Source: Candidatus Woesearchaeota archaeon
Lineage (GTDB): Archaea; Nanobdellota; Nanobdellia; Woesearchaeales; WJKL01
Direction: 5' to 3'
Length of the DNA stretch: 64,000 nt
Assembly (NCBI GenBank): GCA_014729675.1
Contig: WJJM01000039.1
Span: 1,479 to 65,478 of the forward strand
Shown here in pieces: positions 6,975 through 63,796 of the stretch. The position numbers and the translations under genes were made by a program. The notes under the pieces are model-generated. The model made no database searches. It had not been told where the DNA came from and worked only from the letters and a program-made list of their open reading frames with translations. Numbering within the stretch: position 1 is the stretch's first letter; each line of letters opens with the position of its first letter.

Positions 6975-6979
6975 TTATC

Positions 6980-14596: not shown

Positions 14597-14647
14597 TTTA
14601 CACCTCTTATTCTGATGGAGTGTTCTTTTGTTTAAATAGTTTTTTAT

Positions 14648-15274
14648 TTGATAATTGTAATGATGAATCATGATTTTAGAAAAATATTTAAACTGAACAA
14701 GTATCTTTTTATTATGTATGAATTTGAGAATGTAAAGAAGTTTTTTGACATTTCTGATTATAATTATAGTTCCATGTATAAATATATAGAATTGTTTATC
14801 TTTTCTGCTGCAGGATTTTTTATACCTTTTTTTATAGGGCATCCTCAAATAGTTGTGGGGATAATAGTGAACAGTTTTCTGATAAGTTCTTCATTAAAGT
14901 TTAAAGATTATAAGATATTGCCTGTAGTTGTGATGCCTTCATTGGGGGCTTTGTCAAGAGGGTTGTTGTTTGGGCCATATACTCCTTTTTTATTTTATAT
15001 GATTCCTTTTATTTGGATTGGAAATTATCTTTTAGTCTATGCTTTTAGGCAGTTTAAGCTTAAGAAGAAGCTTAATTATTGGCTTAGTCTTGGGATGGGT
15101 ATCGTTTTCAAGGCAGGATTCTTGTTTTTAACTGCTTACATATTCTATATTTTTGGAGTTGTTCCAGCTGTATTTTTGACTGCGATGGGAGTTATGCAGG
15201 CTATAACTGCTTTTGGAGGAGGAGTTGCTGCTTTTGGTTATGAGAAAATCAGCAGATGGGTCAATAGAAGTTAG
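14648..15274 (+). CDS. Integral membrane protein, hypothetical
   Basis: Multiple hydrophobic helices; no motif recognised. Confidence 0.35.
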   Translation: MIIVMMNHDFRKIFKLNKYLFIMYEFENVKKFFDISDYNYSSMYKYIELFIFSAAGFFIPFFIGHPQIVVGIIVNSFLISSSLKFKDYKILPVVVMPSLGALSRGLLFGPYTPFLFYMIPFIWIGNYLLVYAFRQFKLKKKLNYWLSLGMGIVFKAGFLFLTAYIFYIFGVVPAVFLTAMGVMQAITAFGGGVAAFGYEKISRWVNRS

Positions 15275-44876: not shown

Positions 44877-46934
44877 ATGTGCGGGATAATAGGAGTATTT
44901 AATCGCAAGGATAGTGTCAAGTTAGTTGAATCTGGATTGAAAGTTATATCTTATAGAGGAAAGGATCATACAGGAGGGTCTAAAGTTAATGATGGATGCA
45001 TAGGCCATTGCCTTCATTCTGTTGTTGATTCAGTGAAACAGCCGATAGATGGCAGATTTACAGTTAACTGCGAAGTTTATAATTGGAAGGAGTTGGATGA
45101 TAAATATTCTTTAGAAGCTAAGAATGATGCAGATATGCTTTTCAATCTTCTTGAAAAAAAAGGCGTATCTGAAGAAGTTCTTGATGAGCTTGATGGAGTT
45201 TATGCTTTTGCCTATGTTAAAGATAATAAATTATATATTGCAAGAGATATAATAGGGATAAAGCCAGTTTGGTATAGTCATTCTGAAGGATTTGCATTTG
45301 CTTCTGAGAAGAAGGCTTTGGAGTCTATTGGTTATATAGATATTGTTGAGCTTAATCCAAGAAAGATTATAGAGTATGATATTGTATCTGATAGATTGTC
45401 TTTTGTTGAAAGAGATTTTTTTTCTATAAAGCCTGAGCTGAAGGAGAGTAAAGAAGGGATTATAAATAGGCTTAGCAGGCTGCTTGATGATGCTGTATCT
45501 AAGAGGATCCCTTCAAGGAAATTTGGATTGTTATTTTCCGGAGGAGTAGATAGTACATTTTTGGCTATGATGCTGAAGAATAAAGGATATGATTTTACAT
45601 GCTATACAGCTGTATTGGATCATCCAGATTTTAGGGTTCCTGAAGATTTGATTTATTCTAAGAAGATTGCAGATTCTTTAGGTCTTGATCTGAAAGTTGT
45701 GAAGATCAAGCTTGATGATATTGAAGAGTATATTAAAAAAATTGTTCCCCTTATCGAGAATTCAAATGTTGTTAAGGTTGGAGTGGCTTTAACTTTTTTT
45801 AAGGCATGTGAGGAAGCTTCTAAAGATGGATGTAAGGTAATCTTTTCTGGGTTAGGTTCAGAGGAGATATTTGCAGGATATGAAAGGCACAAGAATTCAA
45901 GAAACATAAACGAAGAATGCGTTTCTGGATTATTGAAGATGTATGAAAGAGATCTTTATAGGGATGATGTTATAACGATGTTCAACAGTCTTGAATTAAG
46001 GGTCCCTTTTTTAGATAAAAGATTAGTTGAATATTCTTTGAAAATTCCTGAGAAGTTTAAGCTGACTTCTTCAAACAATAAGATGATATTTCGTGATGTT
46101 GCTCTTGATATGGGGCTTTCAGAAGAGTTTGCTTTAAGAGGAAAGAAAGCTGCGCAGTATGGGAGTAATTTTCATAAGTCATTGGAGAAACTGGCTAAGA
46201 AAAATAAGTTTAAGTATATTTCTGAATATTTGCGCCAGTTTTATCCAGGGCATAATGTCAAGTTAGGAGCATTAGTCAGCAGTGGAAAGGATTCAATATA
46301 TGCTATGCATGTCATGATGAGGCAGAACTATAAGATAAACTGTATGATAAGCCTTTTTAGCTCTAATCCTGATTCTTATATGTTCCATACGCCTGCTGTT
46401 GATCTTGTCAATCTGCAGGCTGAGTCTATAGGCCTGCCTTTATTGCAGTTTAAGACTGAAGGGAAGAAAGAAGATGAGCTTGAAGATCTTAAGAAAGCAC
46501 TTCTAAAGGCTAAGGAAGAATATTGTATTGAAGGGATTGTTACAGGAGCTTTGTTTTCCAACTATCAAAGAGAGAGGATAGAAAAGGTTGCAGATTCTTT
46601 GGGATTGAAGATATTTGCTCCTTTGTGGCATATCAACCAGGAGACAGAGATGAGAGAGATAATTGATAATGGTTTTAAGTTTATAATCGTAAAAGTTATG
46701 GCTGACGGGCTGGATAAAAGCTGGTTGGGAAGAGTTATTACAGATGAAGATGTTGATAGATTGGTTGAGTTGGATTCAAAAATGGGTTTTAATGTCGCTG
46801 GAGAGGGTGGCGAGTACGAGACACTTATGATAGATGGGCCAATATTTAATAAAAAGATAAAGATTGTTGAAAGTTCTACTGAAGAAGAATCTTCTATTGT
46901 TGCTGAGCTGAAGATTGAGAGGGCTGAATTATAA
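44877..46934 (+). CDS. Three-domain fusion: class-II glutamine amidotransferase + AsnB-type PP-loop synthetase + Dph6-type diphthine-ammonia ligase PP-loop domain
   Basis: MCGIIGVF (Ntn Cys1); FSGGVDSTFLA (first PP-loop); VSSGKDSIYAMHV...EGIVTGALFSNYQRERIEKVADSLGLKIFAPLW (MJ0570/Dph6-like second PP-loop). Confidence 0.55.
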   Translation: MCGIIGVFNRKDSVKLVESGLKVISYRGKDHTGGSKVNDGCIGHCLHSVVDSVKQPIDGRFTVNCEVYNWKELDDKYSLEAKNDADMLFNLLEKKGVSEEVLDELDGVYAFAYVKDNKLYIARDIIGIKPVWYSHSEGFAFASEKKALESIGYIDIVELNPRKIIEYDIVSDRLSFVERDFFSIKPELKESKEGIINRLSRLLDDAVSKRIPSRKFGLLFSGGVDSTFLAMMLKNKGYDFTCYTAVLDHPDFRVPEDLIYSKKIADSLGLDLKVVKIKLDDIEEYIKKIVPLIENSNVVKVGVALTFFKACEEASKDGCKVIFSGLGSEEIFAGYERHKNSRNINEECVSGLLKMYERDLYRDDVITMFNSLELRVPFLDKRLVEYSLKIPEKFKLTSSNNKMIFRDVALDMGLSEEFALRGKKAAQYGSNFHKSLEKLAKKNKFKYISEYLRQFYPGHNVKLGALVSSGKDSIYAMHVMMRQNYKINCMISLFSSNPDSYMFHTPAVDLVNLQAESIGLPLLQFKTEGKKEDELEDLKKALLKAKEEYCIEGIVTGALFSNYQRERIEKVADSLGLKIFAPLWHINQETEMREIIDNGFKFIIVKVMADGLDKSWLGRVITDEDVDRLVELDSKMGFNVAGEGGEYETLMIDGPIFNKKIKIVESSTEEESSIVAELKIERAEL

Positions 46935-46938
46935 TAAA

Positions 46939-47044
46939 CGCTCCCTCAGGGATTTGAACCCTGGTTTTAGCCTTATTGCAAATGAGCATCTTTAGAATGC
47001 AGTTACCGCAAGGCTACGTACTATCCAGGCTATACTAAGGGAGC
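46939..47044 (-). tRNA. Intron-containing tRNA (about 32-nt intron in anticodon loop); anticodon most likely GCG (Arg), GAT (Ile) not excluded
   Basis: Acceptor GCTCCCT/AGGGAGC, D-arm GTAT..GTAC with A20, anticodon stem TAGCC/GGCTA enclosing 39 nt, T-arm CAGGG-TTCAAAT-CCCTG, discriminator G. Confidence 0.55.
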
Positions 47045-53269: not shown

Positions 53270-55522
53270 CTATCTGTCATGAGGGATGTAATAAACAACC
53301 ATCTCTCCTGATTCTGCTTTCCTGGCTGGTCTTGGCCTTTCTGAGACTATAACTGAAAATTCTTTTTCAATATAGTCTGTGCCGTCAGAGATTACTGCTT
53401 TTACTTTTTTTGTTCCAGGAGTTACAAAGTATCTTTTCAGTTTTGGCTTTGAGTCTTCTATCTTCTCGAAAAGGCCTGTTTTCCATGTGTATGTAAGGTT
53501 GTCTTCATCAGGGTCAGAGGCTTCTATAGTGAATAATACTGACTGGCCTGTATATATCTTTTCTTTTGACTGTTCTGCTTTTTCTATAACAGGGGCTCTG
53601 TTTACGTCATTTACTATGATAGTTGCCTTGTAGCCGCTAGTGTTTGTGCCGTCATCTGCTATAAACACCACATCATAATCCTTTTGCTCTTCTTCTTTAA
53701 GCACTGCATCGTAGGAAGGCTTCCAGCTAAGGCTGTCATTTGTAAATGTTGAGTTGTCTGGCTTTTGTTCAACTGAAACCTCTATATCTTCTCCGTCAGG
53801 ATCTGAGACTTCTGGAGTTATGGTTACTGTCTCTCCTTCATCTGTTTCACCAGGTTTTATATTTTTGAACTCTGGAGGCCTGTTTACGTTCTTAACTGTA
53901 AGTGTGAAACTTGTACTGTCTTCTAATTCTCCGTCAGAAGCAGAGACATTTATCACGTAGGTTCCTGCAGAATCATATCCTGTCTTCCACTCTCCGTTGT
54001 TTCCTACAGGCTCTGATATATAGAATGCAACCCTGTCATTGTCATATTCAATCACTTTTGGATTGATCCTGATAGTGTCTCCTTCTTTTATAGTAATATC
54101 CTCCAGTTCCAATAATCTAGGCGGCCTGTTTACGTTCTCAACTGTTATCTTTATTGTCTGGGATGATGATTTTTCCTTTCCTGCAGCAGTAACATCTATA
54201 TAGAAGTTTTTAATGTCTCTGTATACTATGCTGTCTAGCCTTATCTTTTGCAGGATACTGTTCAACTTGTTGTCGGGTTTTTGTATAGTCTCGTAATCTG
54301 TTGAAAATGATATTATGTTTCCTGTTATCTGTGCATTTTCCGGCAGGGACTCTGCTGTGAAGGTTACCATATCTCCGTCAGGATCTGTAGCTTTAAGCTT
54401 TATATTTACATTTTCTTCTTCTTTTATATTTATCGATTCAACCTCTTCAAAAACAGGAGCACGGTCAACATCAAGAACAGTTATAAGCACTTCTGTCTCA
54501 TCTACAAGTTTTCCGTCTGTTACCATGACATTAATAGGGTATACACCTGCATCATCATAGCCAGTTTCCCATATCTTGTCGTTTCCTATGGGTTCTGCTA
54601 TGGAATATTTTAGCTCGTCTCCGTCAGGATCTTCTGCTTTAAGATCCAGCTTGACTGTTTCCCCTTCTTTTACTGAGATATCTCTTATATGTTCTATCGA
54701 AGGGGCTCTGTTTACATTTTCAACCTCTAAATTCCAGGATTCTGAGATTATATAATCTCCGTCAGATACTTTAACCTCGACTTCATGGCTTCCTGCTGAA
54801 TCATAGTCAGCTTTATATGTATAATCCTCATCTGAAGAGACCTCTTCTTCATCCAAAAGCCAGATATAGCTTAATTTATCTTTGTCAGGATCTTCTGCAG
54901 AGACTGAAAATTCGACTTCTTCTGTCTCGTCTATGCTTATCTCTTTTTCTTCAGGATCAGAATCTTCTATAGATGGTTCTCTGTTAAGGTTTTCTACAGT
55001 AAGTTTGAAATCATAAGAAGTTGTATGCTGGCCGTCTGTGGCTGTTATAGTTACAGAATATTCTCCTGCGTCTTCGTAACCAGTCTTCCACTCCATGTCA
55101 TCTCCAACCGGGTCTGATACAGAAATAGTAAGGTCTTCTATATCTTCATCTTCTATAACAGGGGAAATCTCCACTGTTTCAGTCTCTTTGATTACTACAT
55201 TATCTATAGGCTCTATGATCGGAGGCCAGTTTACCTTGTTCACTATAAGAAGGACACTTTTTGTTGTTTTTGCCGAACCGTCTGAGACAGTTATGTTCAG
55301 AGGGTATTTACCATAATCTCCATATGTTGTCTGCCATTGGCCTGTAGAGTTAAGAGGAGAAGGATAATCTATAGTTAAGTTGTCTTCATCAGCATCCTGA
55401 GCATCTACCTTTATATTCACCAGCTCTGTCTCATCAACTTCTATCTCTTTTACACTTTCAGAAACAACTATGCTGCTAAGTACAAGAAAGAAAAAAAAGA
55501 TTGAAATTGAAGTTTTTTTCAT
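53270..55522 (-). CDS. Secreted surface protein with about 7 tandem Ig-like (cadherin-like / He_PIG-type) domains
   Basis: Signal peptide; recurring VNR(A/P)P..E.....(K/E)EGE.V...........DPDGD.L.Y.........W.TGYD.AG.Y...V.VSDG motif. Confidence 0.6.
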   Translation of the reverse strand: MKKTSISIFFFFLVLSSIVVSESVKEIEVDETELVNIKVDAQDADEDNLTIDYPSPLNSTGQWQTTYGDYGKYPLNITVSDGSAKTTKSVLLIVNKVNWPPIIEPIDNVVIKETETVEISPVIEDEDIEDLTISVSDPVGDDMEWKTGYEDAGEYSVTITATDGQHTTSYDFKLTVENLNREPSIEDSDPEEKEISIDETEEVEFSVSAEDPDKDKLSYIWLLDEEEVSSDEDYTYKADYDSAGSHEVEVKVSDGDYIISESWNLEVENVNRAPSIEHIRDISVKEGETVKLDLKAEDPDGDELKYSIAEPIGNDKIWETGYDDAGVYPINVMVTDGKLVDETEVLITVLDVDRAPVFEEVESINIKEEENVNIKLKATDPDGDMVTFTAESLPENAQITGNIISFSTDYETIQKPDNKLNSILQKIRLDSIVYRDIKNFYIDVTAAGKEKSSSQTIKITVENVNRPPRLLELEDITIKEGDTIRINPKVIEYDNDRVAFYISEPVGNNGEWKTGYDSAGTYVINVSASDGELEDSTSFTLTVKNVNRPPEFKNIKPGETDEGETVTITPEVSDPDGEDIEVSVEQKPDNSTFTNDSLSWKPSYDAVLKEEEQKDYDVVFIADDGTNTSGYKATIIVNDVNRAPVIEKAEQSKEKIYTGQSVLFTIEASDPDEDNLTYTWKTGLFEKIEDSKPKLKRYFVTPGTKKVKAVISDGTDYIEKEFSVIVSERPRPARKAESGEMVVYYIPHDR

Positions 55523-55545
55523 TTTAAAATTAAAAAAATAAAAAA

Positions 55546-56652
55546 TTATTCCTCCTGAACAATGTCTATTATTTCAGGAGCTTTGTTTATGTCTTCTACG
55601 ATTACAGTCACTTCGAGAGTTGTTGTTGATTCTTCATCTTCAGCTTTGATAGTCACTGTATATTCTCCGTGGTCTGTGTAGTCGGTTTCCCAGGTTCCAT
55701 CGTTCCCTACCGGGTCTGAGATAGTTACTGTGACATCGTCTTCATTAAGGTCTGTCACTTCAGGCTCAAGCACCAGAGTGTCTCCTTCCTGTATCTCTAT
55801 GAACTCTTCAACACCTTCTATTTTTGGAGCTACATTTTTTTTGTTGATAGTTACTTTTACTGTCTGTTCTGATTCAAGCTCTTCGTCAGTGGCTTTTATG
55901 ATTATATCATACTCTCCATTGTCAGTATAGCCTGTCTCCCAGATGCCGTCGTTCCCTACCGGGTCTGAGATAGTTACAGTAACTTCATCGCCGTTTGGAT
56001 CTGCGATAACAGGTTCAAGCACAAGTGTTTCTCCTTCATCAAGTGAAACGCTCTTGATGTTTTCTATCTCCGGAGCTACATTTACCTTCTCAACAACAAG
56101 CAATACATCTTTTGATGTTTCTGCTTTACCATCTGTAGCTGTAACTGTTACAAGATACTCCCCAGCATCTCCGTAATCTGTCTGCCATCTTCCGTCCTCA
56201 TCCAATGGTGATGTGAAAGTATATGTGATATCGTCTTCGTCAAGATCTTTTGCTTTAGGCTTTAGGCTTACTTTTTCGCCTTCTTTTACATCGATAGTTA
56301 TATCGGCTTTAAGGTCTTCTGCTACCTCTTCAACAACTTCTTCTGCTACCTCTTCAACAACTTCTTCTGCAGTCTCTTCAACAACTTCTTCTGTTTCTTC
56401 AACAACTTCTTCTGTCTCTTCTACTTCTTCAGATGTTTCTTTTTCAAGTTTATCTGTAGCTTCTTCGGTTTCTTGTTCCAGCTCTTCTATCAGCTCATCA
56501 AGCTCGTCTTCTGACTCATCTTCGTCTTTTTCAGTCAGCAGGGAATATGGCTTATCTTCCTCGACATTGCCTGCTATGTAATCTGAAACAGCGCAGCCTG
56601 TCATCAAGACAGCTATCATAAGAATTCCTGCAATCATTAGTTTATTTTTCAT
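55546..56652 (-). CDS. Lipoprotein-signal surface protein with acidic E/V/T low-complexity linker and three Ig-like domains
   Basis: MKNKLMIAGILMIAVLMTGC lipobox-like; EEVVEETEEVVEE repeats (DNA-level tandem repeats about 56330-56420); VN(V/K)APEI...D.N.D.VT.T...P...DG.WETDY.D.GEY domain x3. Confidence 0.55.
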   Translation of the reverse strand: MKNKLMIAGILMIAVLMTGCAVSDYIAGNVEEDKPYSLLTEKDEDESEDELDELIEELEQETEEATDKLEKETSEEVEETEEVVEETEEVVEETAEEVVEEVAEEVVEEVAEDLKADITIDVKEGEKVSLKPKAKDLDEDDITYTFTSPLDEDGRWQTDYGDAGEYLVTVTATDGKAETSKDVLLVVEKVNVAPEIENIKSVSLDEGETLVLEPVIADPNGDEVTVTISDPVGNDGIWETGYTDNGEYDIIIKATDEELESEQTVKVTINKKNVAPKIEGVEEFIEIQEGDTLVLEPEVTDLNEDDVTVTISDPVGNDGTWETDYTDHGEYTVTIKAEDEESTTTLEVTVIVEDINKAPEIIDIVQEE

Positions 56653-57124: not shown

Positions 57125-57211
57125 CGCCCCGAGCAAGACTCGAACTTGCGACCTTGCGGTTTCAGCTTTTGGCTTAACAGCCGCACGCTCTACCTGCTAA
57201 GCTATCGGGGC
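57125..57211 (-). tRNA. tRNA-Asn (anticodon GTT) with about 14-nt intron after position 37
   Basis: Acceptor GCCCCGA/TCGGGGC, D-arm GCTT-AGCAGGTA-GAGC, anticodon stem TGCGG/CCGCA, loop CTGTTA(A), T-arm GCAAG-TTCGAGT-CTTGC, discriminator G. Confidence 0.6.
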
Positions 57212-57278: not shown

Positions 57279-58553
57279 ATGTTTTTATATTGGCATTTAT
57301 TATATATAGGTATGAGGCGCGAAGCACTGGAAATAAGCCGCAGCATCAAGGAATTTATAGATTCTGCTAATAATATCATCTCTGAAGCAAGGCAGGAGCT
57401 GGCAGAAAGCAGGGAAATATCTGCATTCCTGAAAGGCAAGACAGGGCAGATGCTTGAGAAGACTATCCATGTTCTTGAGACATACGATGACTTTCTTAAA
57501 GCTGCAGGATTCAAGAAAACTATCAAGAAGATAAAAAAAGCGCTGATTAAGTGTTCTATCCTGGCTGAGAGACTAGATAAAAGCAATTTTCATAAATTTA
57601 AAGCATGGATGGAGATTGTAGAGAATCTTTCAAGAGAGATAAACTCGATATTAACTACATTGATCGGATCAAGAAGCTTATCCCATGGGTGGGTTCTTGA
57701 CCAGTTAAGAAGAGAAGAAAATTTTTTGCTGATACTGCATAGGCTCGGGAGTTCCAGAAGAAAAAATAAGGGAATAGAAAGGGATGTGGATATAGCAAAT
57801 AATATCGCAAGGACAGTACAGCTGCATCAAAAAAGTTTCTTAAGGACATTTCAGATATCTATGGACAGCGATATGTTCTGGATAGAGCATAAAGGCAGGG
57901 CAAGTATCTATTTTGGGCATCCGTCAACTGCAAGGCACCTGCTGAAAGTAAGAAAAGCAAAACAGGTAATGGCCCTTAGAAACAAGTCTGGAGTTGCACT
58001 TCCAGAAAACGTGTTCAAAAGGATGGATCCTGAACTACATATAAGCATAGAGCTGAAATTCGGCATAGGCGACAGCTGGAAAGCGGTCAAAACACTGATT
58101 GACACATTAAATGATTACGGGCTGCTGCAGAGGGTTACATTCCAGTCACAAAACCTTTATCTTCTGGATCTTGTGAAGAGTTATTCACGAAAACTTCCGA
58201 CATTTCTTTTTTCAAAAGGAAGAAGCCTTATGCGATTTCATCTGCCTATCCACTTTTCCTGGAATGAGATGTTTAACAAACCAGCACATCTCTCATTATC
58301 CTGCCTTCCGGGTTATGTGGATGGAATGATGGAGCATAATCCTCCAAAAGACATAATAAGATACAAGGCATATGCAGATTCCTTCAAGAAACAGGGGAAA
58401 TTATGCATGCCTTTTATAATCAATGCATTCATGAGAACGCAACATGGAAAAACTGCAAGAAACAGGATAATGCAGGCATATCTTGCAGGCTGCCATGGCG
58501 GCTTTGTAGAAAAGAGTTCTGTAGAGCCTTTGATAGACCTCATAAAAGACTAA
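57279..58553 (+). CDS. Hypothetical protein; C-terminal half weakly glycerophosphodiester-phosphodiesterase-like
   Basis: IELKFG and VTFQSQN segments reminiscent of GDPD motifs; N-terminal 190 aa helical; weak. Confidence 0.3.
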   Translation: MFLYWHLLYIGMRREALEISRSIKEFIDSANNIISEARQELAESREISAFLKGKTGQMLEKTIHVLETYDDFLKAAGFKKTIKKIKKALIKCSILAERLDKSNFHKFKAWMEIVENLSREINSILTTLIGSRSLSHGWVLDQLRREENFLLILHRLGSSRRKNKGIERDVDIANNIARTVQLHQKSFLRTFQISMDSDMFWIEHKGRASIYFGHPSTARHLLKVRKAKQVMALRNKSGVALPENVFKRMDPELHISIELKFGIGDSWKAVKTLIDTLNDYGLLQRVTFQSQNLYLLDLVKSYSRKLPTFLFSKGRSLMRFHLPIHFSWNEMFNKPAHLSLSCLPGYVDGMMEHNPPKDIIRYKAYADSFKKQGKLCMPFIINAFMRTQHGKTARNRIMQAYLAGCHGGFVEKSSVEPLIDLIKD

Positions 58554-58629
58554 ACAGATTTAAATACCGATACAACAATTATAAAGAATGGGAAAATTTA
58601 ACCTTTATTCGAGATTTGAAGGAAGATAC

Positions 58630-59193
58630 ATGAAGCAGCTTCAGGATTTCAGAGAGTGGATCTTTGCTCCTTTATTAAAAATCCTGCTTAGGTTTAGTAT
58701 AAGGCCAGACCATATCAGCCTTCTTTCAGTATTTTTCGGAATATTGTTCCTGTTTTTTATCCAAAAAAATATCAGGCTGTCATTATTTTTTTTAGTCATA
58801 TCTTTTTTTCTTGATACCCTGGACGGCACTTTAGCCAGAAAACTAGGCATATCCTCTATGGGCGGAACTATAGTTGATGCATCATCTGATACAGCAGTTA
58901 TAATATTGACATCTTTCGGCTTTTTTGTAATAGGGCTTATCCAGTTAGAAGTCCTTGTAGCTTATATTCTAACCTATATGATAATTGTGGGGCTGTCTAT
59001 CTGGAGAAACTCAAAAAACATCCCTTACATGTTTGTGATTAGGCCAAGACTTTTAGTCTATCTGTTTTTTGCCATCTATGTCATCTGGGGGATAAATATA
59101 CTTAATGTTTCGATGGCATTGTTCTCTCTGCTCATGTTTGTAGAATCTTCTTTCACTCTTAGGTTTTTCTTCTATAATAAAAAACAGAAGTGA
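58630..59193 (+). CDS. CDP-alcohol phosphatidyltransferase family protein (paralog 1)
   Basis: DTLDGTLARKLG...GGTIVDASSD = D(x)2DG(x)2AR...G(x)3D(x)3D; ATG 58630 with GGAAG SD preferred over 58588. Confidence 0.65.
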   Translation: MKQLQDFREWIFAPLLKILLRFSIRPDHISLLSVFFGILFLFFIQKNIRLSLFFLVISFFLDTLDGTLARKLGISSMGGTIVDASSDTAVIILTSFGFFVIGLIQLEVLVAYILTYMIIVGLSIWRNSKNIPYMFVIRPRLLVYLFFAIYVIWGINILNVSMALFSLLMFVESSFTLRFFFYNKKQK

Positions 59194-59722
59194 TGTTGAG
59201 AATAAGGAAAAGTATGTTGAATACTATTATAAGATACATGAAAACAGGCATGCCTGTGAAGAAGACAAAGAAGATGAGTACTGCGTCTCCCCAGACAGGA
59301 AGGTTCTTGTTGATCCGGAGATTTTTCTTATCTATAATATAGGCAAACAACGGACTGATGATGACAGTGAAAAGTGTTGCAAGGGCAAGGCTGTAGCTGA
59401 AAAAGCTGTTATATGCAAGTATGATATAGCCTGCTCTTCTTAAGATATAATCTGAGCTTTTGTCAATGATGTTTCCGAATCCTGTTACATTGTCTGTCTT
59501 TCTTGCTATCATCCCGTCAAGCCCGTCAAAGAAGTGGTCTATGATAAGGGCGGTCCCTGCAAGTATCAGCTGGTTTTTGAAGAGGAAGTATAATGAGGCA
59601 AGCTTGAATATGAGAGAGATGAGCGTGGCTCTTATAGGAGTAAGGCCTACACTGTAGAGGGCTTCAGCCAGTTTTTTGCTGTCAAGTATTCTTGCTTTTT
59701 TTCTTAAATAAGGGATTATCAT
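59159..59722 (-). CDS. CDP-alcohol phosphatidyltransferase family protein (paralog 2)
   Basis: DHFFDGLDGMIARKT...GNIIDKSSD motif. Confidence 0.65.
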   Translation of the reverse strand: MIIPYLRKKARILDSKKLAEALYSVGLTPIRATLISLIFKLASLYFLFKNQLILAGTALIIDHFFDGLDGMIARKTDNVTGFGNIIDKSSDYILRRAGYIILAYNSFFSYSLALATLFTVIISPLFAYIIDKKNLRINKNLPVWGDAVLIFFVFFTGMPVFMYLIIVFNILFLILNITSVFYYRRKT

Positions 59723-60894
59723 CTTAATGACCTGTATACTGAAAGAAGCTTTTTTGATGTGTTTTCTATAGAATGCGGCTTTACGTTCTTTTCTGCATTT
59801 TCTGACATTTTTCTCATCAGATCTTTGTCATCAAGAAGCTTTACTGCCTCTTTGCTGAACCTGTCTATAGATTCCGGCACTAAGATCCCGTCTTTGTTAT
59901 GGACAATCGTGTCTACAGATCCAGGCGCTTTTACTGCAATTGTGGGAAGGCCTGCTGCTTTTGCCTCAAGAAAGATTATGCCCTGGGTCTCTGTCTTTGA
60001 TGCAAAGACAAAAAGGTCTGCAGCAGCATAATAAGAAGGGATATCTTTATGAGGAACAGAGCCTGCAAGCATTACATTTTTCTTAAGGCTGTTCTTTTCT
60101 ATGAATTCTTTTACTTTTTCTTCCTCAGGACCGCAGCCGGCTATCAGGAGTTTTGTATCCGGAAGAGACTTGATCATCTTTTTGAAGGATTTTAGAAGGA
60201 AGAATATATTTTTTTCCAGGCCTATCCTGCCTACATAAAGAAGAAGATTCTCATCTTCTTTTACATTGTACTTTTTCCTTATCTTGTTTTTTTCCAGGCC
60301 TTGGAATTTTTTAATATCTATCCCTGTAGGGATTATTTCTATCCTTGTTTTTACCTTGTTCTTTAGGAGATATTTTTTTATAGATTCAGTAGGAGCTATC
60401 ACGCAGTCACATTTGCTGCAGTAATGCAGGCTTAGCTTTTTTGCTATGATAGAGGTTATGTCCTGATCAAAAGGAAGGTAATGGGCGTATTTTTCATATT
60501 GGGTGTGATATGTGAATACAAGGGGGATGTTGTATTTCTTTGCAAAATATTTTGCTGCATTTCCTATGATCCATGGATGGTGGGAATGGATTATGTCAAG
60601 ATCTAGTTTTTTTATTATCCCGGGAATCCTGTTGGACAGAACAGGGAAGGTAAGGCTCTTTATAGGATTGAATTCAGAATCTATCGATATATCAATTGAC
60701 TTATACCTATGTATCTTTTCTTCTTTTCTCTTCTTTTCTGCAGTGTAATAATGAGGTGCAAATATATGGACTTCCTGATCAAGAGCTTCAAGGCCTCTTT
60801 TGAATGAGTCTACGCTTACGACAACTCCGGTAAGTACAGGCCTGTAGGTGTTTGTGAACATTCCTATTTTCATATTGGGATGCTGTTTTTTCAT
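59719..60894 (-). CDS. Glycosyltransferase family 4 (GT-B fold)
   Basis: C-terminal ...SKTETQGIIFLEAKAAGLPTIAVKAPGSVDTIVHNKDGILV (E-x7-E region); 4-nt overlap with upstream paralog 2. Confidence 0.75.
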   Translation of the reverse strand: MKKQHPNMKIGMFTNTYRPVLTGVVVSVDSFKRGLEALDQEVHIFAPHYYTAEKKRKEEKIHRYKSIDISIDSEFNPIKSLTFPVLSNRIPGIIKKLDLDIIHSHHPWIIGNAAKYFAKKYNIPLVFTYHTQYEKYAHYLPFDQDITSIIAKKLSLHYCSKCDCVIAPTESIKKYLLKNKVKTRIEIIPTGIDIKKFQGLEKNKIRKKYNVKEDENLLLYVGRIGLEKNIFFLLKSFKKMIKSLPDTKLLIAGCGPEEEKVKEFIEKNSLKKNVMLAGSVPHKDIPSYYAAADLFVFASKTETQGIIFLEAKAAGLPTIAVKAPGSVDTIVHNKDGILVPESIDRFSKEAVKLLDDKDLMRKMSENAEKNVKPHSIENTSKKLLSVYRSLR

Positions 60895-60961
60895 GTTTAA
60901 TAAGTTTTCTTTTTGTTTCTAATCCAAAAATATTTAAACAGGTTTTGGCTGTTGTTTTTGT

Positions 60962-61447
60962 ATGGTGAATATTCCCAACCTGCTGACTGCCTTGAGGATT
61001 GCTTTTGCTCCTTTGGTACTTTACTTTATCCTTATCTCAAGGCAGTATCTTGCATCTGTCTTGTTTGTGGCAATTGTTCTTAGTGATGCTTTTGACGGCT
61101 ATATAGCCAGAAAATATAATCAAGGTTCCAGAGTAGGCAAGATACTTGATCCCATTTCAGACAAGCTGCTTTATGTTTTTGTTCTTTTAGGGGTACTCAT
61201 CAGGGAAAAGTATTTTTTATGGCTCTGGTTTTTTGGGATATTATCTTTAATGTTTATCGTAGGATATACTATCATATTAAGAAAAGGGATAAAATTTCCT
61301 ACAAGGCTTGGAAGAATATGCAATCTTGCAGAGGTCATACTTCTTGCACTGATGATACTTTCTGTCAATAAAGTTATTCTTGTGCTTTTTTCTTCTTTTA
61401 TACTTGTTTCAGCATTTAGCTATGCTTACACACTGATAAAGAAATAG
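60962..61447 (+). CDS. CDP-alcohol phosphatidyltransferase family protein (paralog 3)
   Basis: MVNIPNLLTALRIAFAPL N-terminus and DAFDGYIARKYNQGSRVGKILDPISD motif. Confidence 0.7.
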   Translation: MVNIPNLLTALRIAFAPLVLYFILISRQYLASVLFVAIVLSDAFDGYIARKYNQGSRVGKILDPISDKLLYVFVLLGVLIREKYFLWLWFFGILSLMFIVGYTIILRKGIKFPTRLGRICNLAEVILLALMILSVNKVILVLFSSFILVSAFSYAYTLIKK

Positions 61448-61866
61448 ACAAACAACGAGGATATTATTCCTATTATCGCTCCTACTAATACTTCCAGAGG
61501 CGTATGGCCGAGAGCATATTGCCTTTCAGGAATCTTAAGTTTTACAGACCTTATTATCCTGTTTATTGTTTTTCCTTCTTCTCCTGCTGTCCTTCTTACT
61601 CCCATAGCATCCCTTATGACTATAAGTGCAAGGACCAATGACAGGACAGAGAGATCTGTGATCCCTTCAGTGAGGAAGAGTATCAATACAAGTGAGACAA
61701 CAACTGAAGAATGAGAGCTTGGCATGCCTCCTGTGAGGAAGATGTCTTTTAGATGGACCTTTTGCTCTTTCTTTATTATCATAAGATGCATCTTTGCAAA
61801 TTGTGCAAGAGCCCAGGCTATAAATACAGAAAGAAATACCTTGTTAGCCAGGAGTTCTGCTATCAT
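61426..61866 (-). CDS. DUF212 / acid-phosphatase-vanadium-haloperoxidase-related membrane protein
   Basis: GGMPSSHSSVVVSL signature; 4 TM helices. Confidence 0.5.
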   Translation of the reverse strand: MIAELLANKVFLSVFIAWALAQFAKMHLMIIKKEQKVHLKDIFLTGGMPSSHSSVVVSLVLILFLTEGITDLSVLSLVLALIVIRDAMGVRRTAGEEGKTINRIIRSVKLKIPERQYALGHTPLEVLVGAIIGIISSLFVYFFISV

Positions 61867-62314: not shown

Positions 62315-63796
62315 TTATTTAAAAGGCTGGGCTTCTGTATTTCTTGATATGACTTTTGCTGGAACTCCTCCTGCAATTACATTTTTAGGTACATTTCCGA
62401 CCACAACAGATCTAATACTAATTTGAGAATTATCTCCAATATTACATCCCATTATTATTGATTCCGAGCCTATCTTACAATTATTTCCAACAATTATTTT
62501 CGTTGGATTACCGTTCAGATCATATGGTCTAAATATAACCCCGTCTCCTATTAAAGTCTTATCACCTATTTCTACTAATTCGGGATGTACTGCATCGATG
62601 TATACTCTTGGAGCAGAAGTTATATGGCCTTTAATCTTAACACCCAATAATTTATGAAGTCTATTCTTTAGATTAATTGCAGGCAACCGCTCAATAAAAG
62701 GCAGTCTCCCAATCAAAGGAATATCTTTGGGAACAGGATCATAAGGTATTATTTTACAAAGGCTCATTACCCAATGTACAAATTTATGAACCAATTTTTC
62801 ATAAGCTGTACCACTCATAGCTTTTTCTAGAAATTTTATGTATTGAGGATCAGCATTGTCATACACTTTTAATCTTTCTGGAATATTTCGTAAAACAACT
62901 GAATGTGATTTTACTCTAACATTTTTACCAATTTCAACAGGACCAACAAAGCAATTATCTTCAATAACAACTTCACTGTGAATTGTTAATGGTGCAAAAG
63001 CATACTTCTTAATGCTAAAATCATGTGTCCAGAGTTTGGTATTATTCCCAATAACCACATTATCTTCTATTCTTATTAATTCTGGATAAAAATAATCAAA
63101 TTGGACATTTTTTCCAATCGTAACATTGTCTCCAATGTAAACTCCTATAAGCCTTAGAAGATATATTCTTGTTTGAGTTGGTAAATTTTTACTGATCTCT
63201 ATCAATCCTGCCTTGTAGGCTGTTCTAAAAAATCCGCCTATATGATACCAGCTCCTTGAAGGGTGATCTGTTCCATGAAAGTATGTTAATAACCTTTTTT
63301 TACTAAACTTTTCAATATCTGCTTTTGCCAAAGCTTCTCCCCTTTCTGGCCTATGGCTTGTCGATATTTTTATATCAGGGTCAACACCATAAAATTCCAA
63401 TCTTTTTTTTATTTCAGACATAGTCTTTTTTTTCTTAATCTCAGTATCATGAAAACACTCGTAAACCTCAACAATAAGATTATTTAGAAAACTGATCTCG
63501 ATCTTGTTTAATTCAGAATAATTCTGTTCTTTCAACAATGATTTAATTTTTAATAAAAGAGCTTCTAATGTGTTAAAAGAATCTCTACACTCCCCTACAA
63601 GTAAATCTTTATGTTTTTGTAAACCAATAATTGTCTTAACTAATTTATTAATTCTTGTGTTTGTTTCCTTCTTGAACCAGACATCCTTCTCTTTTGGAAA
63701 AACGTTTCTTCTTAATCTGTACAATAATCGATGAAAAAAGTATTTCTGGAACATCAGTATTAAATAATTTACTTGATATATAAATCTAACTATCAC
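62315..63796 (-). CDS. Two-domain protein: N-terminal unknown domain + C-terminal left-handed beta-helix (hexapeptide-repeat) acyl/acetyltransferase
   Basis: Repeated [LIV]GxxxxI hexapeptides in last about 170 aa (IGDNVTIGKNVQF..., IGDNSQISIRSVVVGNVPKNVIAGGVPAKVI). Confidence 0.6.
   Translation of the reverse strand: MIVRFIYQVNYLILMFQKYFFHRLLYRLRRNVFPKEKDVWFKKETNTRINKLVKTIIGLQKHKDLLVGECRDSFNTLEALLLKIKSLLKEQNYSELNKIEISFLNNLIVEVYECFHDTEIKKKKTMSEIKKRLEFYGVDPDIKISTSHRPERGEALAKADIEKFSKKRLLTYFHGTDHPSRSWYHIGGFFRTAYKAGLIEISKNLPTQTRIYLLRLIGVYIGDNVTIGKNVQFDYFYPELIRIEDNVVIGNNTKLWTHDFSIKKYAFAPLTIHSEVVIEDNCFVGPVEIGKNVRVKSHSVVLRNIPERLKVYDNADPQYIKFLEKAMSGTAYEKLVHKFVHWVMSLCKIIPYDPVPKDIPLIGRLPFIERLPAINLKNRLHKLLGVKIKGHITSAPRVYIDAVHPELVEIGDKTLIGDGVIFRPYDLNGNPTKIIVGNNCKIGSESIIMGCNIGDNSQISIRSVVVGNVPKNVIAGGVPAKVISRNTEAQPFK

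What the first reader, a model, noticed from the sequence alone, without database searches (positions are those of the whole stretch)
57279..61866. Polar-lipid head-group cluster with three tandem CDP-alcohol phosphatidyltransferase paralogs
Three small (161-201 aa) CDP-OH phosphotransferases with intact D(x)2DG(x)2AR...G(x)3D(x)3D motifs lie within 3 kb (58630, 59159-, 60962). A GT4 glycosyltransferase, a DUF212 membrane protein and a weakly GDPD-like protein are interleaved with them. In archaea such paralogs make archaetidylserine, archaetidylinositol-phosphate and archaetidylglycerol-phosphate. Finding the head-group toolkit clustered is notable if the organism lacks core lipid synthesis, as many DPANN do, and remodels host-derived lipids.
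Basis: partly seen in the sequence, partly recalled or inferred. Interest (0 to 1): 0.5.

Follow-up and report, generated by a model that had tools for sequence, protein, structure and literature searches.

The report
Woesearchaeal membrane-lipid head-group gene cluster
A small archaeon of the DPANN group carries, within 4.6 kb, three very divergent enzymes that attach polar head groups to membrane lipids, together with a lipid glycosyltransferase, a membrane phosphatase and a phosphodiesterase; the chemistry is ordinary, but the clustering and divergence of the genes are unusual.

Summary
Three CDP-alcohol phosphatidyltransferase (CAPT) genes lie at 58588-59193(+), 59159-59722(-) and 60962-61447(+). 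Each has an intact D-x2-DG-x2-AR-x8-G-x3-D-x3-D motif. Interleaved with them are a GT4 glycosyltransferase, a DUF212/PAP2-like membrane protein and a 413-aa protein. I show by profile and fold that the 413-aa protein is a divergent GDPD-type phosphodiesterase.

The contig is from a Candidatus Woesearchaeota MAG, where NCBI annotates all three CAPTs as hypothetical proteins. They are old paralogs (30-35% identity), not tandem duplicates.

None reaches an equivalog threshold.
- A and B are nearest to archaetidylinositol-phosphate/PIP synthases.
- C is nearest to bacterial PgsA and CDP-type cardiolipin synthase.
- None resembles serine synthases.
- B lacks the acceptor-site arginines of PIP synthase.
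- C has a degenerate PgsA GKxKT motif.

The GT4 is closest to bacterial monoglucosyl-diacylglycerol synthase.

The block is conserved in only one other known genome. No core lipid or CDP-activating gene lies in the 64 kb window. Whether the genome lacks them could not be tested, so "remodelling of host lipids" remains speculation.

Verdict: a real, coherent polar-lipid head-group module built from known superfamilies with lineage-specific, uncharacterised subfamilies. Interest is moderate.

The parts
57312..58553 (+). Divergent GDPD-fold phosphodiesterase (413 aa from M12; the ORF opens at 57279). It has an N-terminal helical domain of about 125 aa followed by a TIM barrel. The conserved pattern is HR..., DxD-FWIEH, FGHP, IELKxG.
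   Evidence: There is no Pfam hit for the protein alone. The family is rare: 12 representatives at E<=1e-3 among 1.84e9 proteins. The conserved catalytic-type pattern appears in alignment A1. The family profile hits GDPD 2pz0 at E=1.5e-10. The AF2 model has pLDDT 74. Foldseek against the PDB puts GDPDs at ranks 1-28, and the S. aureus lysoPG phospholipase D 8ghi is also matched. The hydropathy scan finds no transmembrane segment.
58588..59193 (+). CAPT paralog A (201 aa), AIPS/PIPS-like. It lies 34 bp downstream of the GDPD-like gene on the same strand.
   Evidence: PF01066 scores 52.3 bits and the motif is intact. The best NCBIfam match is AIPS at 47.5 bits against a cut-off of 180, and its relative scores 43.7. 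The best PDB match is M. tuberculosis PIPS 6h53. 'FVIRPRLL' aligns to the MtPis acceptor-site segment 'FIERPERLI', which holds R152 and R155. Only one relative (85% identity) was found among 5.8e9 proteins.
59159..59722 (-). CAPT paralog B (187 aa) with a PIPS-like fold and an unknown acceptor. Its start overlaps the GT4 stop by 4 nt, and its 3' end overlaps A by 35 bp.
   Evidence: PF01066 scores 51.9 bits and the motif is intact. NCBIfam gives AIPS 49.3 and PIPS 47.4, both below cut-off. The best PDB sequence match is MtPis at 37.5 bits. The AF2 model (pLDDT 79.5) shows two juxtamembrane helices and six TM helices. Foldseek ranks PIPS first (TMq 0.74), then DIPPS, PgsA and AF2299, with PSS the poorest among the prokaryotic CAPT structures matched. 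B and its relative have 'NKNLPVWGDA' where PIPS has RPER, and they lack the PSS serine-site residues. Only one relative (77% identity) was found.
59719..60894 (-). GT4 glycosyltransferase (391 aa), closest to lipid alpha-monoglucosyl-diacylglycerol synthase. It is co-transcribed with B.
   Evidence: PF00534 scores 146.8 bits and PF13439 110.9 bits. NCBIfam MGlcDAG synthase gives 227.7 bits over the full length (cut-off 400), while the next family reaches only 121 bits. The best PDB matches are BshA, MshA and PimB' at 63-80 bits. The nearest GT4 in other GTDB species representatives is 37% identical and comes from an Atribacterota MAG.
60895..60961 (.). A 67-bp AT-rich divergent intergenic region between the GT4 and C. 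It probably holds promoters for both directions, and it is the synteny breakpoint in the relative genome.
   Evidence: The sequence contains TTTAATAA and ATATTTAAA. The relative's contig 40 matches the window up to 60914 and its contig 96 matches from 60916.
60962..61447 (+). CAPT paralog C (161 aa), PgsA-like or CDP-type cardiolipin-synthase-like.
   Evidence: PF01066 scores 94.8 bits. NCBIfam gives pgsA 66.3 (cut-off 109) and ClsA 62.9, and its relatives score 72-80. The best PDB match is S. aureus PgsA 7drj. C keeps the PgsA-type 'LDPISDK', but the PgsA 'GKxKT..Q' motif reads 'GRICNLAE'. Relatives outside its clade that were checked by context or carry source names are bacterial PgsA or cardiolipin synthase.
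61426..61866 (-). DUF212, a divergent PAP2 membrane protein (146 aa) and putative lipid-phosphate phosphatase. It is convergent with C and overlaps it by 22 bp.
   Evidence: PF02681 scores 124.4 bits and PAP2 26.3 bits. The hydropathy scan shows four hydrophobic peaks consistent with transmembrane segments. The C-DUF212 pair is kept in the relative genome even though the flanks differ.
57125..57211 (-). tRNA gene (87 nt) at the upstream border of the cluster.
   Evidence: Rfam RF00005 scores 59.9 bits, and ARAGORN also detects it.

Best explanation
The locus is a polar head-group module for membrane lipids in a Woesearchaeote.

Shown:
- Three catalytically intact, six-helix CAPT enzymes.
- A lipid-type GT4.
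- A PAP2-like integral membrane protein.
- A soluble GDPD-fold phosphodiesterase.
- Tight transcriptional packing: GDPD-like then A, GT4 then B with an ATGA overlap, and a 67-bp divergent promoter region between the GT4 and C.

Inferred mechanism:
1. Each CAPT takes a CDP-activated lipid (CDP-archaeol or CDP-diacylglycerol; CAPTs are known to be tolerant of the lipid backbone) and transfers the (archae/phospha)tidyl group to an alcohol.
2. A most likely uses myo-inositol-1-phosphate, because it retains an RP(E)R-like acceptor segment.
3. C most likely uses glycerol phosphate, or (archae/phospha)tidylglycerol if it acts as a cardiolipin-type synthase.
4. B has a PIPS-like fold but lacks the phosphate-binding arginines, so it probably uses a different, possibly uncharged, alcohol.
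5. The DUF212/PAP2 protein removes the terminal phosphate of the AGP/AIP-type products. The archaeal phosphatases for these steps are unidentified. Alternatively, or in addition, it turns (archae/phospha)tidic acid into the free lipid alcohol.
6. The GT4 then glycosylates that lipid alcohol from a UDP-sugar to give a monoglycosyl lipid, or it glycosylates the product of B.
7. The GDPD-like enzyme cleaves glycerophosphodiester head groups, for turnover or recycling.
For: - Family membership and intact motifs.
- Fold of B equals the CAPT fold, with PIPS the best match.
- Consistent nearest families in the window proteins and their relatives (A and B to AIPS/PIPS, C to PgsA/ClsA).
- The GT4 is by far closest to a glycolipid synthase (227.7 bits against at most 121 for any other family).
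- DUF212 is a PAP2-related membrane protein.
- The GDPD fold and conserved H-R / DxD / H / ExK pattern.
- Gene overlaps and short spacers.
- The block GDPD-like-A-B-GT4 and the pair C-DUF212 are both conserved in the only related genome.
- The archaeal AGP/AIP phosphatases are still unidentified, and CAPTs accept both archaeal and bacterial lipid backbones: review PMC9385802 and PMC8633023.
Against: - No paralog reaches any equivalog cut-off, so the acceptor assignments are weak.
- The C-terminal-half alignments used to judge acceptor residues are low-scoring.
- B lacks the Arg (MtPis R152) described as structurally conserved in CAPTs, so it might be inactive or do something else.
- No CDP-archaeol or CDP-DAG synthase, and no core lipid gene, lies in the 64 kb window.
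- The linkage is seen in only two closely related genomes.
- Distant GDPD-like homologues are not linked to CAPTs.
- None of 80 metagenomic PgsA-like loci has a DUF212, GT4 or GDPD-like neighbour.
- DUF212 has no characterised member in the literature searched.
Confidence: 0.62

Rival explanations
1. Host-lipid remodelling. The organism cannot build lipid cores. The GDPD-like enzyme (acting as a phospholipase D or C) and the PAP2 protein strip head groups from scavenged host lipids. The three CAPTs and the GT4 then install the symbiont's own head groups.
For: - The genome is DPANN and no core lipid gene lies in the window.
- GDPD-fold enzymes include a lysophospholipid phospholipase D, and 8ghi is among the structural matches.
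- The cluster sits next to large PKD/cadherin-like surface proteins.
- The literature proposes that Woesearchaeia modify lipids taken from hosts (PMC11868695).
Against: - Re-attachment by a CAPT still needs a CTP-dependent CDP-lipid synthase (CarS or CdsA), which was not found in the window and could not be searched for in the genome.
- Many Woesearchaeota are reported to have MEP, UbiA and bacterial-type lipid genes.
- The one DPANN-host lipidome study consulted (PMC11035636) is framed as selective recruitment of host lipids, and its authors found no identifiable lipid biosynthesis genes in the symbiont.
- Nothing in the sequences separates remodelling from de novo synthesis.
Confidence: 0.2
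2. The module works on bacterial-type diacylglycerol lipids rather than archaeol lipids. C (a PgsA type) and the GT4 (an MGlcDAG-synthase type) would then be bacterial acquisitions that make phosphatidylglycerol and glucosyl-DAG, fitting a Woesearchaeote with a bacterial-like or bacterial-host-derived membrane.
For: - C's closest relative examined outside its clade (P0004) is a bacterial PgsA in a rimO-pgsA-cinA-recA context, and a phage-like contig also carries a relative.
- The GT4's best family is bacterial MGlcDAG synthase, and the nearest other GTDB hit is Atribacterota.
- Published reports describe bacterial G3P dehydrogenase, fatty-acid and cyclopropane-fatty-acid genes in Woesearchaeota.
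Against: - A and B score best against the archaeal AIPS model.
- CAPTs and lipid GTs are promiscuous for the backbone, so homology does not fix the substrate.
- GC content is not anomalous (0.378 against 0.368), so no recent transfer is evident.
- The homologue searches were sensitivity-limited.
Confidence: 0.25
3. The products are not membrane lipids. A and B would make soluble polyol-phosphodiesters (di-myo-inositol phosphate or glycerophosphoinositol-type solutes). Alternatively, the GT4 and PAP2 would serve dolichol-linked glycan or cell-surface polymer synthesis, with the GDPD degrading the diesters.
For: - A and B fall in the AIPS/PIPS/DIPPS branch, and DIPPS 4mnd and AF2299 are good structural matches to B.
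- B lacks the lipid-PIPS acceptor arginines.
- GDPDs typically act on soluble glycerophosphodiesters.
- PAP2 enzymes also recycle polyprenyl diphosphates (general knowledge).
- The GT4 has a weak match to Agl16 (65.6 bits).
Against: - The DIPPS model scores only 13-29 bits.
- There is no cytidylyltransferase or inositol-phosphate synthase in the cluster or window.
- The GT4 matches the glycolipid synthase 3.5 times better than Agl16.
- C is clearly PgsA-like.
Confidence: 0.1

Closest known systems
Archaeal polar-lipid head-group pathway: archaetidylinositol-phosphate synthase (AIPS), archaetidylglycerol-phosphate synthase (PgsA homologue) and archaetidylserine synthase, all acting on CDP-archaeol
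   Same: - Same enzyme superfamily, motif and six-helix fold.
- A and B score best to the AIPS model, and C to PgsA.
- A downstream phosphatase step is expected, as in AGP to AG and AIP to AI.
   Different: - All scores are 2- to 4-fold below the equivalog cut-offs.
- There is no serine-synthase-like member.
- B lacks the I1P-binding arginines, and C has a degenerate GKxKT motif.
- The genes are clustered with a GT4, a DUF212 and a GDPD-like gene, which is not a described arrangement.
- The lipid donor (CDP-archaeol or CDP-DAG) is unknown.
Mycobacterial early PIM genes: pgsA1 (Rv2612c, PIP synthase), patA (Rv2611c) and pimA (Rv2610c, GT4 mannosyltransferase)
   Same: - A PIPS-type CAPT is encoded next to, and co-oriented with, a GT4 glycosyltransferase that glycosylates the lipid made.
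- An acyl/acetyl-transferase gene is nearby. Here it is an LbH protein at 62315-63796.
- B's best sequence and structural matches are the mycobacterial PIPS.
   Different: - The GT4 here is much closer to MGlcDAG synthase than to PimA/PimB-type enzymes (228 bits against about 63).
- The acyltransferase is of an unrelated family and is 448 bp beyond DUF212.
- B lacks the PIPS acceptor residues.
- The analogy concerns gene order (adjacent gene numbers from PMC4792965) and has not been tested functionally.
Bacterial PgsA plus PgpB (PAP2) route to phosphatidylglycerol, and the CDP-type cardiolipin synthase ClsA
   Same: - C has the PgsA/Cls signature LDPxSDK.
- C scores best to TIGR00560 and NF053678.
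- C overlaps a PAP2-superfamily membrane protein, as expected for a synthase-phosphatase pair.
   Different: - C is short (161 aa) and below cut-off.
- Its G3P-phosphate motif is altered.
- The phosphatase is DUF212, a divergent PAP2 branch with no characterised member, not PgpB.
- The pairing was not seen in 80 other PgsA-like loci.
Alpha-monoglucosyl-diacylglycerol synthase (Mgs, NF049988), the Acholeplasma/Firmicutes type
   Same: The GT4 gives a full-length alignment (residues 8-390 against model positions 1-387 of 398) at 227.7 bits. This is by far its best family.
   Different: The score is below the 400-bit equivalog cut-off. The host is archaeal, and the acceptor (DAG, archaeol or an inositol lipid) and the sugar donor are unknown.
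GDPD family (PF03009), including glycerophosphodiesterases GlpQ/UgpQ and S. aureus lysophosphatidylglycerol phospholipase D (8ghi)
   Same: - TIM-barrel fold (TM-score to target 0.6-0.7).
- Same order of the catalytic-type residues H-R, (E/D)xD, H and ExK.
- The family profile hits 2pz0 at E=1.5e-10.
   Different: - There is no Pfam hit for the protein itself.
- An extra helical N-terminal domain of about 125 aa is present.
- The canonical ENT element is not evident.
- The family is rare (12 representatives in 1.84e9 proteins) and its substrate is unknown.

Membership tests
CDP-alcohol phosphatidyltransferase superfamily (PF01066) | Score above the Pfam gathering threshold (22 bits) | tested here: met
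   A scores 52.3, B 51.9 and C 94.8 bits.
CDP-alcohol phosphatidyltransferase superfamily (PF01066) | Motif D-x2-DG-x2-AR-x7-8-G-x3-D-x3-D, including the four metal-binding Asp residues | tested here: met
   A regular expression matches in all three proteins. The equivalents of MtPis D68, D71, D89 and D93 are conserved.
CDP-alcohol phosphatidyltransferase superfamily (PF01066) | Integral membrane fold of six transmembrane helices | tested here: met
   The AF2 model of B shows two juxtamembrane helices plus six helices, and Foldseek matches it to PIPS, DIPPS and PgsA. A and C were assessed by hydropathy only.
Archaetidylinositol phosphate synthase (NF040950) | Equivalog score of at least 180 bits | tested here: not met
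   A scores 47.5, B 49.3 and C 40.5. The relatives score 43.7 and 58.8. AIPS is nevertheless the best-scoring family for A and B.
PIP/AIP synthases | Inositol-phosphate-binding residues (MtPis S132, K135, R152, R155, R195) | tested here: inconclusive
   A has 'IRPR' aligned to 'ERPER' and an Arg near the C-terminus. B and its relative have no Arg there ('LPVWGDA'). The alignments are low-scoring, and the residue list comes from PMC9385802.
Archaetidylserine / phosphatidylserine synthase (NF038087, TIGR04217, TIGR00473) | Equivalog score (200-240 bits; 107 for pssA) and the serine-site residues of MjPSS (S63, R101, F105) | tested here: not met
   The best score is B at 32.4 bits. B has K at the S63 position and no equivalents of R101 or F105. 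PSS is the poorest structural match to B among the prokaryotic CAPT structures found.
PgsA (TIGR00560) | Equivalog score of at least 109.1 bits | tested here: not met
   C scores 66.3 and its relatives 71.7 and 73.2. PgsA is the best or co-best family for C, alongside ClsA.
PgsA (TIGR00560) | Conserved GKxKT..Q segment between TM4 and TM5, present in 50-90% of retrieved homologues | tested here: not met
   C has GRICNLAE, and its relatives have GRICNLAE and GKSAHFFE.
GT4 glycosyltransferases (PF00534 + PF13439) | Both GT-B halves score above threshold | tested here: met
   Scores are 146.8 and 110.9 bits.
Alpha-monoglucosyldiacylglycerol synthase (NF049988) | Equivalog score of at least 400 bits | tested here: not met
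   The score is 227.7 bits over the full length. This is the best family by a wide margin.
DUF212 / divergent PAP2 (PF02681) | Score above the gathering threshold (26.5 bits) | tested here: met
   The score is 124.4 bits, and PAP2 PF01569 scores 26.3 bits, just under its cut-off.
DUF212 / divergent PAP2 (PF02681) | Lipid-phosphate phosphatase activity | not testable with these tools
   No characterised member was found in the literature searches.
GDPD (PF03009) | Pfam score above threshold | tested here: not met
   The window protein gives no hit. Only 2 of 12 family members give weak hits, the best at E=0.0064.
GDPD (PF03009) | TIM-barrel fold with the H-R, E/DxD, H and ExK catalytic pattern | tested here: met
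   The profile hits 2pz0 at E=1.5e-10 with the ExK segment aligned to E119/K121. Foldseek ranks 1-28 are GDPDs. The conserved columns are H143, D185, D187, H203, E247 and K249.
DPANN organism lacking lipid core synthesis | Absence of G1PDH, GGGPS, DGGGPS and CarS (or PlsXYC and CdsA) from the genome | not testable with these tools
   Only the 64-kb window could be screened, and none is present there.

The most novel reading that the evidence does not exclude
A lineage-specific head-group exchange machine in an archaeal episymbiont. A new GDPD-like family enzyme (helical membrane-docking domain plus barrel) cleaves the head groups of lipids taken from a host. A DUF212 phosphatase, which would be the long-missing archaeal AGP/AIP or archaetidate phosphatase, and three highly diverged CAPTs then rebuild a symbiont-specific set of phospho- and glycolipids. 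One of these CAPTs (B) has a new, non-phosphorylated acceptor and is coupled to a GT4.
Probability: 0.12. Interest if true: 0.7.

Novelty: new variant of a known kind. Interest (0 to 1): 0.36.

Why it matters
DPANN archaea are generally thought to take their membrane lipids from hosts, and what they can still do to those lipids is an open question. A compact locus with head-group transferases, a glycolipid synthase, a phosphatase and a phosphodiesterase gives concrete candidate genes for head-group synthesis or editing in Woesearchaeota.

It also offers two specific leads:
- DUF212 as a candidate for the still-unidentified archaeal AGP/AIP phosphatase.
- An undescribed GDPD-like family.

All three transferases are annotated as hypothetical proteins in GenBank, so they are invisible to annotation-based surveys of lipid genes in DPANN. 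The chemistry itself, however, is expected for any cell with a phospholipid membrane. Without genome-wide context or biochemistry, the finding does not change current views.

Tried and rejected
1. Exact-sequence look-ups of the window's GT4 and of C returned nothing. The source was identified instead through homologue names.

2. Word-seeded homologue searches for A and B found only one relative each. A proper phylogeny with characterised AIPS, ASS and AGPS was therefore not possible. HMM-library scores and PDB comparisons were used instead.

4. The single genome-contig scan, run with the GT4, found only the known relative plus distant bacterial and archaeal GT4s.

5. Contexts of distant GDPD-like homologues showed no conserved link to CAPTs.

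6. A metagenome scan for the C subfamily returned 80 PgsA-like loci. None has a DUF212, GT4 or GDPD-like neighbour, so the C-DUF212 pairing is not general.

7. The idea that the 429-aa gene upstream of C in the relative is a paralogue of the GDPD-like gene was rejected (no similarity). It is part of an insertion or rearrangement at the GT4/C spacer.

8. The idea that B is a serine synthase, suggested by a GLPxP-like segment, was rejected on residues and on structure ranking.

9. The afdb50 fold library was unavailable.

10. Literature searches for a DUF212 function found nothing usable.

11. A recent horizontal origin of the block was considered. The GC content is unremarkable.

Full report
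**What is in the sequence**

The region 57279-61866 holds six closely packed genes.
- 57279/57312-58553 (+), 424/413 aa, no Pfam hit.
- A, 58588-59193 (+), 201 aa.
- B, 59159-59722 (-), 187 aa.
- A GT4 glycosyltransferase, 59719-60894 (-), 391 aa.
- C, 60962-61447 (+), 161 aa.
- A DUF212 protein, 61426-61866 (-), 146 aa.

A, B and C match Pfam PF01066 (CDP-alcohol phosphatidyltransferase) at 52.3, 51.9 and 94.8 bits against a threshold of 22. The GT4 matches PF00534 and PF13439 at 146.8 and 110.9 bits. The last gene matches PF02681 (DUF212, 'divergent PAP2') at 124.4 bits.

A regular expression for D-x2-DG-x2-AR-x7-12-G-x3-D-x3-D matches once in each paralog, always with the canonical 8-residue spacer.

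The gene layout is as follows.
- A follows the first gene by 34 bp on the same strand.
- A and B converge and overlap by 35 bp.
- B's start overlaps the GT4 stop by 4 nt.
- The GT4 and C diverge from a 67-bp AT-rich spacer with two TATA-like elements.
- C and DUF212 converge and overlap by 22 bp.

'Tandem' is not. The three genes are on alternating strands and share only 30-35% identity over partial lengths. They are old paralogs, not recent duplicates.

**Whose genome**

The three CAPT proteins are identical to MBD3249247, MBD3249248 and MBD3249250. These are 'hypothetical protein GF336_04345/04350/04360 [Candidatus Woesearchaeota archaeon]' on a 65,792-bp contig.

The window's other genes fit an archaeon.
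- A three-domain ATP-dependent DNA ligase.
- An XPD-type helicase.
- A DHH-CID (GAN-like) protein.
- An archaeal helicase with 'Helicase_dom4_arc'.
- A diphthamide-synthase domain.
- Ribosomal protein S15 with the S13/S15 N-terminal domain.
- An FtsZ.
- A type-IV-pilus-like ATPase with two T2SSF proteins.
- Unusually long (87- and 106-nt), probably intron-bearing, tRNA genes.

None of the screened ORFs of at least 120 aa in the 64 kb is a core lipid enzyme or a CDP-lipid synthase.

**The first gene is a GDPD-fold enzyme**

On its own it has no Pfam or NCBIfam hit. An exhaustive HMMER search of 1.84 billion representatives found only 12 relatives at E<=1e-3. The best is the 82%-identical 413-aa orthologue, which starts at the window protein's M12.

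The family alignment shows a conserved pattern: F..HR.G, (E/D)xD-FWIEH, FFGHP, IExKxGxG and a C-terminal GGF. A profile of this alignment hits solved glycerophosphodiester phosphodiesterases. The best is 2pz0 at E=1.5e-10, with six of the top nine also GDPDs. The ExK segment aligns to 2pz0 E119/K121.

An AlphaFold model (pLDDT 74, with the barrel mostly 80-92) shows an N-terminal helical domain of about 125 residues followed by an alternating beta/alpha barrel. Foldseek against the PDB returns GDPDs at ranks 1-28, and also the S. aureus lysophosphatidylglycerol phospholipase D.

It is a divergent, rare GDPD-superfamily member that keeps the catalytic-type residues. It has no predicted transmembrane segment.

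**What kind of CAPT is each paralog**

Against NCBIfam's curated models (relatives):
- A scores best to archaetidylinositol-phosphate synthase, 47.5 bits against a cut-off of 180. Its relative scores 43.7.
- B scores best to the same model (49.3; relative 58.8), closely followed by bacterial PIP synthase (47.4).
- C scores best to pgsA (66.3; cut-off 109.1) and to the CDP-type cardiolipin synthase ClsA (62.9). Its relatives score 72-80.
- Serine-synthase models score at most 32 bits for any of them.

Against PDB sequences, A and B hit mycobacterial PIP synthase best (20.4 and 37.5 bits). C hits S. aureus PgsA best (33.6 bits).

An AlphaFold model of B (pLDDT 79.5) has two juxtamembrane helices and six transmembrane helices. 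It superposes best on M. kansasii and M. tuberculosis PIPS (TM-score 0.70-0.74, 22-23% identity). DIPPS, PgsA and AF2299 follow, and the M. jannaschii serine synthase ranks below all of these, the poorest of the prokaryotic CAPT structures.

So no paralog is a member of a characterised equivalog family. The nearest neighbours are AIPS/PIPS for A and B, and PgsA/Cls for C.

**Acceptor-site residues**

I verified the full M. tuberculosis PIPS sequence against PDB 6h53. I used the residue roles summarised in PMC9385802.

All CDP- and metal-binding positions are kept in A, B and C. On the acceptor side:
- A has 'FVIRPRLLVY' aligning to MtPis 'FIERPERLIIV', which holds R152 and R155. It also has an Arg near its C-terminus. 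This is compatible with an inositol-phosphate acceptor.
- B and its relative have a conserved 'NKNLPVWGDA' there, with no arginine.
- B also lacks the serine-site residues reported for MjPSS (S63, R101, F105; PMC8633023).
- C keeps the PgsA/Cls-type 'LDPISDK'. However, the segment that reads GKxKT..Q in 50-90% of retrieved PgsA-like proteins is 'GRICNLAE' in C. It is similar in its two relatives.

These C-terminal alignments are weak, so I treat the conclusions as suggestive. A is plausibly an AIP synthase. C is a PgsA- or Cls-like enzyme with a modified phosphate pocket. B has an unknown, perhaps non-phosphorylated, acceptor, or is impaired.

**The GT4 and DUF212**

The GT4 aligns end-to-end with the alpha-monoglucosyl-diacylglycerol synthase model at 227.7 bits. 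That is below the 400-bit cut-off but nearly twice the next family (BshA, 121 bits). Solved structures give only generic GT4 matches: BshA, MshA and PimB'. A lipid acceptor is therefore the best guess.

DUF212 is a small protein with several hydrophobic, probably membrane-spanning, segments. It is related to PAP2 lipid-phosphate phosphatases. I found no characterised member. The review notes that the archaeal phosphatases acting after AGP/AIP synthesis have not been identified.

**Conservation**

Only one other genome is known to carry these genes: GCA_964464955.1, titled 'uncultured Methanosarcinales archaeon' but about 80% identical and syntenic.
- Its contig 40 has PKD protein, PKD protein, GDPD-like, A, B and GT4 in the same order.
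- Its contig 96 has C and DUF212.
- Nucleotide alignment shows contig 40 matching the window up to 60914 and contig 96 matching from 60916. Both points lie inside the 67-bp GT4/C spacer, so the relative has an insertion or rearrangement exactly there.

More distant comparisons gave no further support.
- More distant GDPD-like homologues lie in archaeal contexts without adjacent CAPTs. One has a CAPT with an NTP_transf_3 gene 5 kb away.
- C's closest relative examined outside its clade is a bacterial pgsA gene in a rimO-pgsA-cinA-recA context.
- Another relative sits on a phage-like contig.
- Of 80 metagenomic PgsA-like loci retrieved with C-subfamily motifs, none has a DUF212, GT4 or GDPD-like neighbour.

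Comparative support for functional linkage is thus limited to one lineage.

**Most likely mechanism**

Taken together, the locus most likely makes and turns over polar head groups of membrane lipids.
1. The CAPTs transfer an (archae/phospha)tidyl group from a CDP-lipid to inositol phosphate (A), to glycerol phosphate or a PG-type lipid (C), and to an unknown alcohol (B).
2. DUF212 dephosphorylates the phosphorylated products and/or generates the free lipid alcohol.
3. The GT4 makes a glycolipid. It may act on the product of B, with which it is translationally coupled. This gene order recalls mycobacterial pgsA1-patA-pimA (gene numbers in PMC4792965).
4. The GDPD-like enzyme hydrolyses glycerophosphodiester head groups.

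Family membership, motifs, folds and gene packing are shown. Substrates and the order of steps are inferred.

**Open questions**

Whether the backbone is archaeol or diacylglycerol cannot be told from sequence. CAPTs accept both. Woesearchaeota are reported to carry MEP, UbiA and bacterial-type lipid genes.

It is neither supported nor excluded.
- It would need a CDP-lipid synthase that I could not look for outside the window.
- The one DPANN-host lipidome study I consulted is framed as selective recruitment of host lipids, and its authors found no identifiable lipid biosynthesis genes in the symbiont (PMC11035636).
- Authors working on Black Sea Woesearchaeia have speculated about modification of host lipids (PMC11868695).

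**Verdict**

This is a genuine and coherent gene cluster made of known enzyme superfamilies, so nothing here is categorically new. Three features make it a new variant rather than a routine member.
- A and B are extremely divergent: one relative each in 5.8 billion proteins by the word-seeded search, and annotated as hypothetical.
- The acceptor motifs of B and C are altered.
- The cluster includes an undescribed GDPD-like family and an uncharacterised PAP2 branch.

Interest is moderate. The locus supplies testable candidates for head-group synthesis or editing in a DPANN archaeon, and for the missing archaeal lipid-phosphate phosphatase. The present evidence does not show anything that would surprise a lipid biochemist.

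Noticed in passing
window 11371-14848 (-): A bacterial-type trimeric [FeFe]-hydrogenase set sits on an archaeal contig. It comprises HydA (560 aa, Fe_hyd_lg_C plus the small-subunit domain), a NuoF-like subunit (380 aa) and a NuoE-like 2Fe-2S protein (218 aa).
   Followed up: no
window 62315-63796 (-): A 493-aa protein carries two left-handed beta-helix acyltransferase domains. Its best NCBIfam match is heptaprenylglyceryl-phosphate O-acetyltransferase at 107.7 bits, against a cut-off of 300. It lies 448 bp upstream of DUF212 on the same strand, so it may extend the lipid cluster beyond the reported coordinates.
   Followed up: partly
window 46939-47044 (-) and 57125-57211 (-): Two long tRNA genes (106 and 87 nt) probably contain introns. 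The first is found only by Rfam. For the second, ARAGORN reports an odd 4-base anticodon. The second abuts the lipid cluster.
   Followed up: no
window 53270-56652 (-) and 1002-6974 (+): Large PKD/cadherin/Big_9 repeat proteins (750 and 368 aa) lie directly upstream of the cluster. A 1990-aa DUF2341/LamG protein is also present. They look like the adhesin-type surface proteins common in DPANN.
   Followed up: no
window 44877-46934 (+): A 685-aa protein fuses a glutamine amidotransferase and asparagine-synthase module to a Diphthami_syn_2 domain.
   Followed up: no
L006/L007 and L001 (GCA_964464955.1 contigs CAYXHN010000040.1 and CAYXHN010000096.1): The only close relative genome is titled 'uncultured Methanosarcinales archaeon', yet it is about 80% identical and syntenic to this Woesearchaeota contig, so it is probably mislabelled. 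It has a break exactly in the GT4/C spacer. An NTP_transf_2 gene and an unrelated 429-aa gene lie upstream of C there.
   Followed up: partly
L016 (JGI Ga0247390_1010547) 3555-5510: A phage-like contig (DUF5131, RecA, thymidylate synthase, many small ORFs) carries a PgsA-like CAPT followed by a GT2 and a PlsC-type acyltransferase. This is a possible virus-encoded lipid-modifying cassette.
   Followed up: no
L015 (ENA ERZ27247709 k141_1236938) 116-2746 and 6001-7224: A distant homologue of the GDPD-like protein lies about 5 kb from a CAPT gene. That CAPT is divergently paired with an NTP_transf_3 (possible alcohol cytidylyltransferase) gene and an aminotransferase gene.
   Followed up: no
window 58588-61447: GenBank annotates all three CAPT paralogs as 'hypothetical protein' (MBD3249247.1, MBD3249248.1, MBD3249250.1). 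Annotation-based surveys of lipid genes would therefore miss them.
   Followed up: yes
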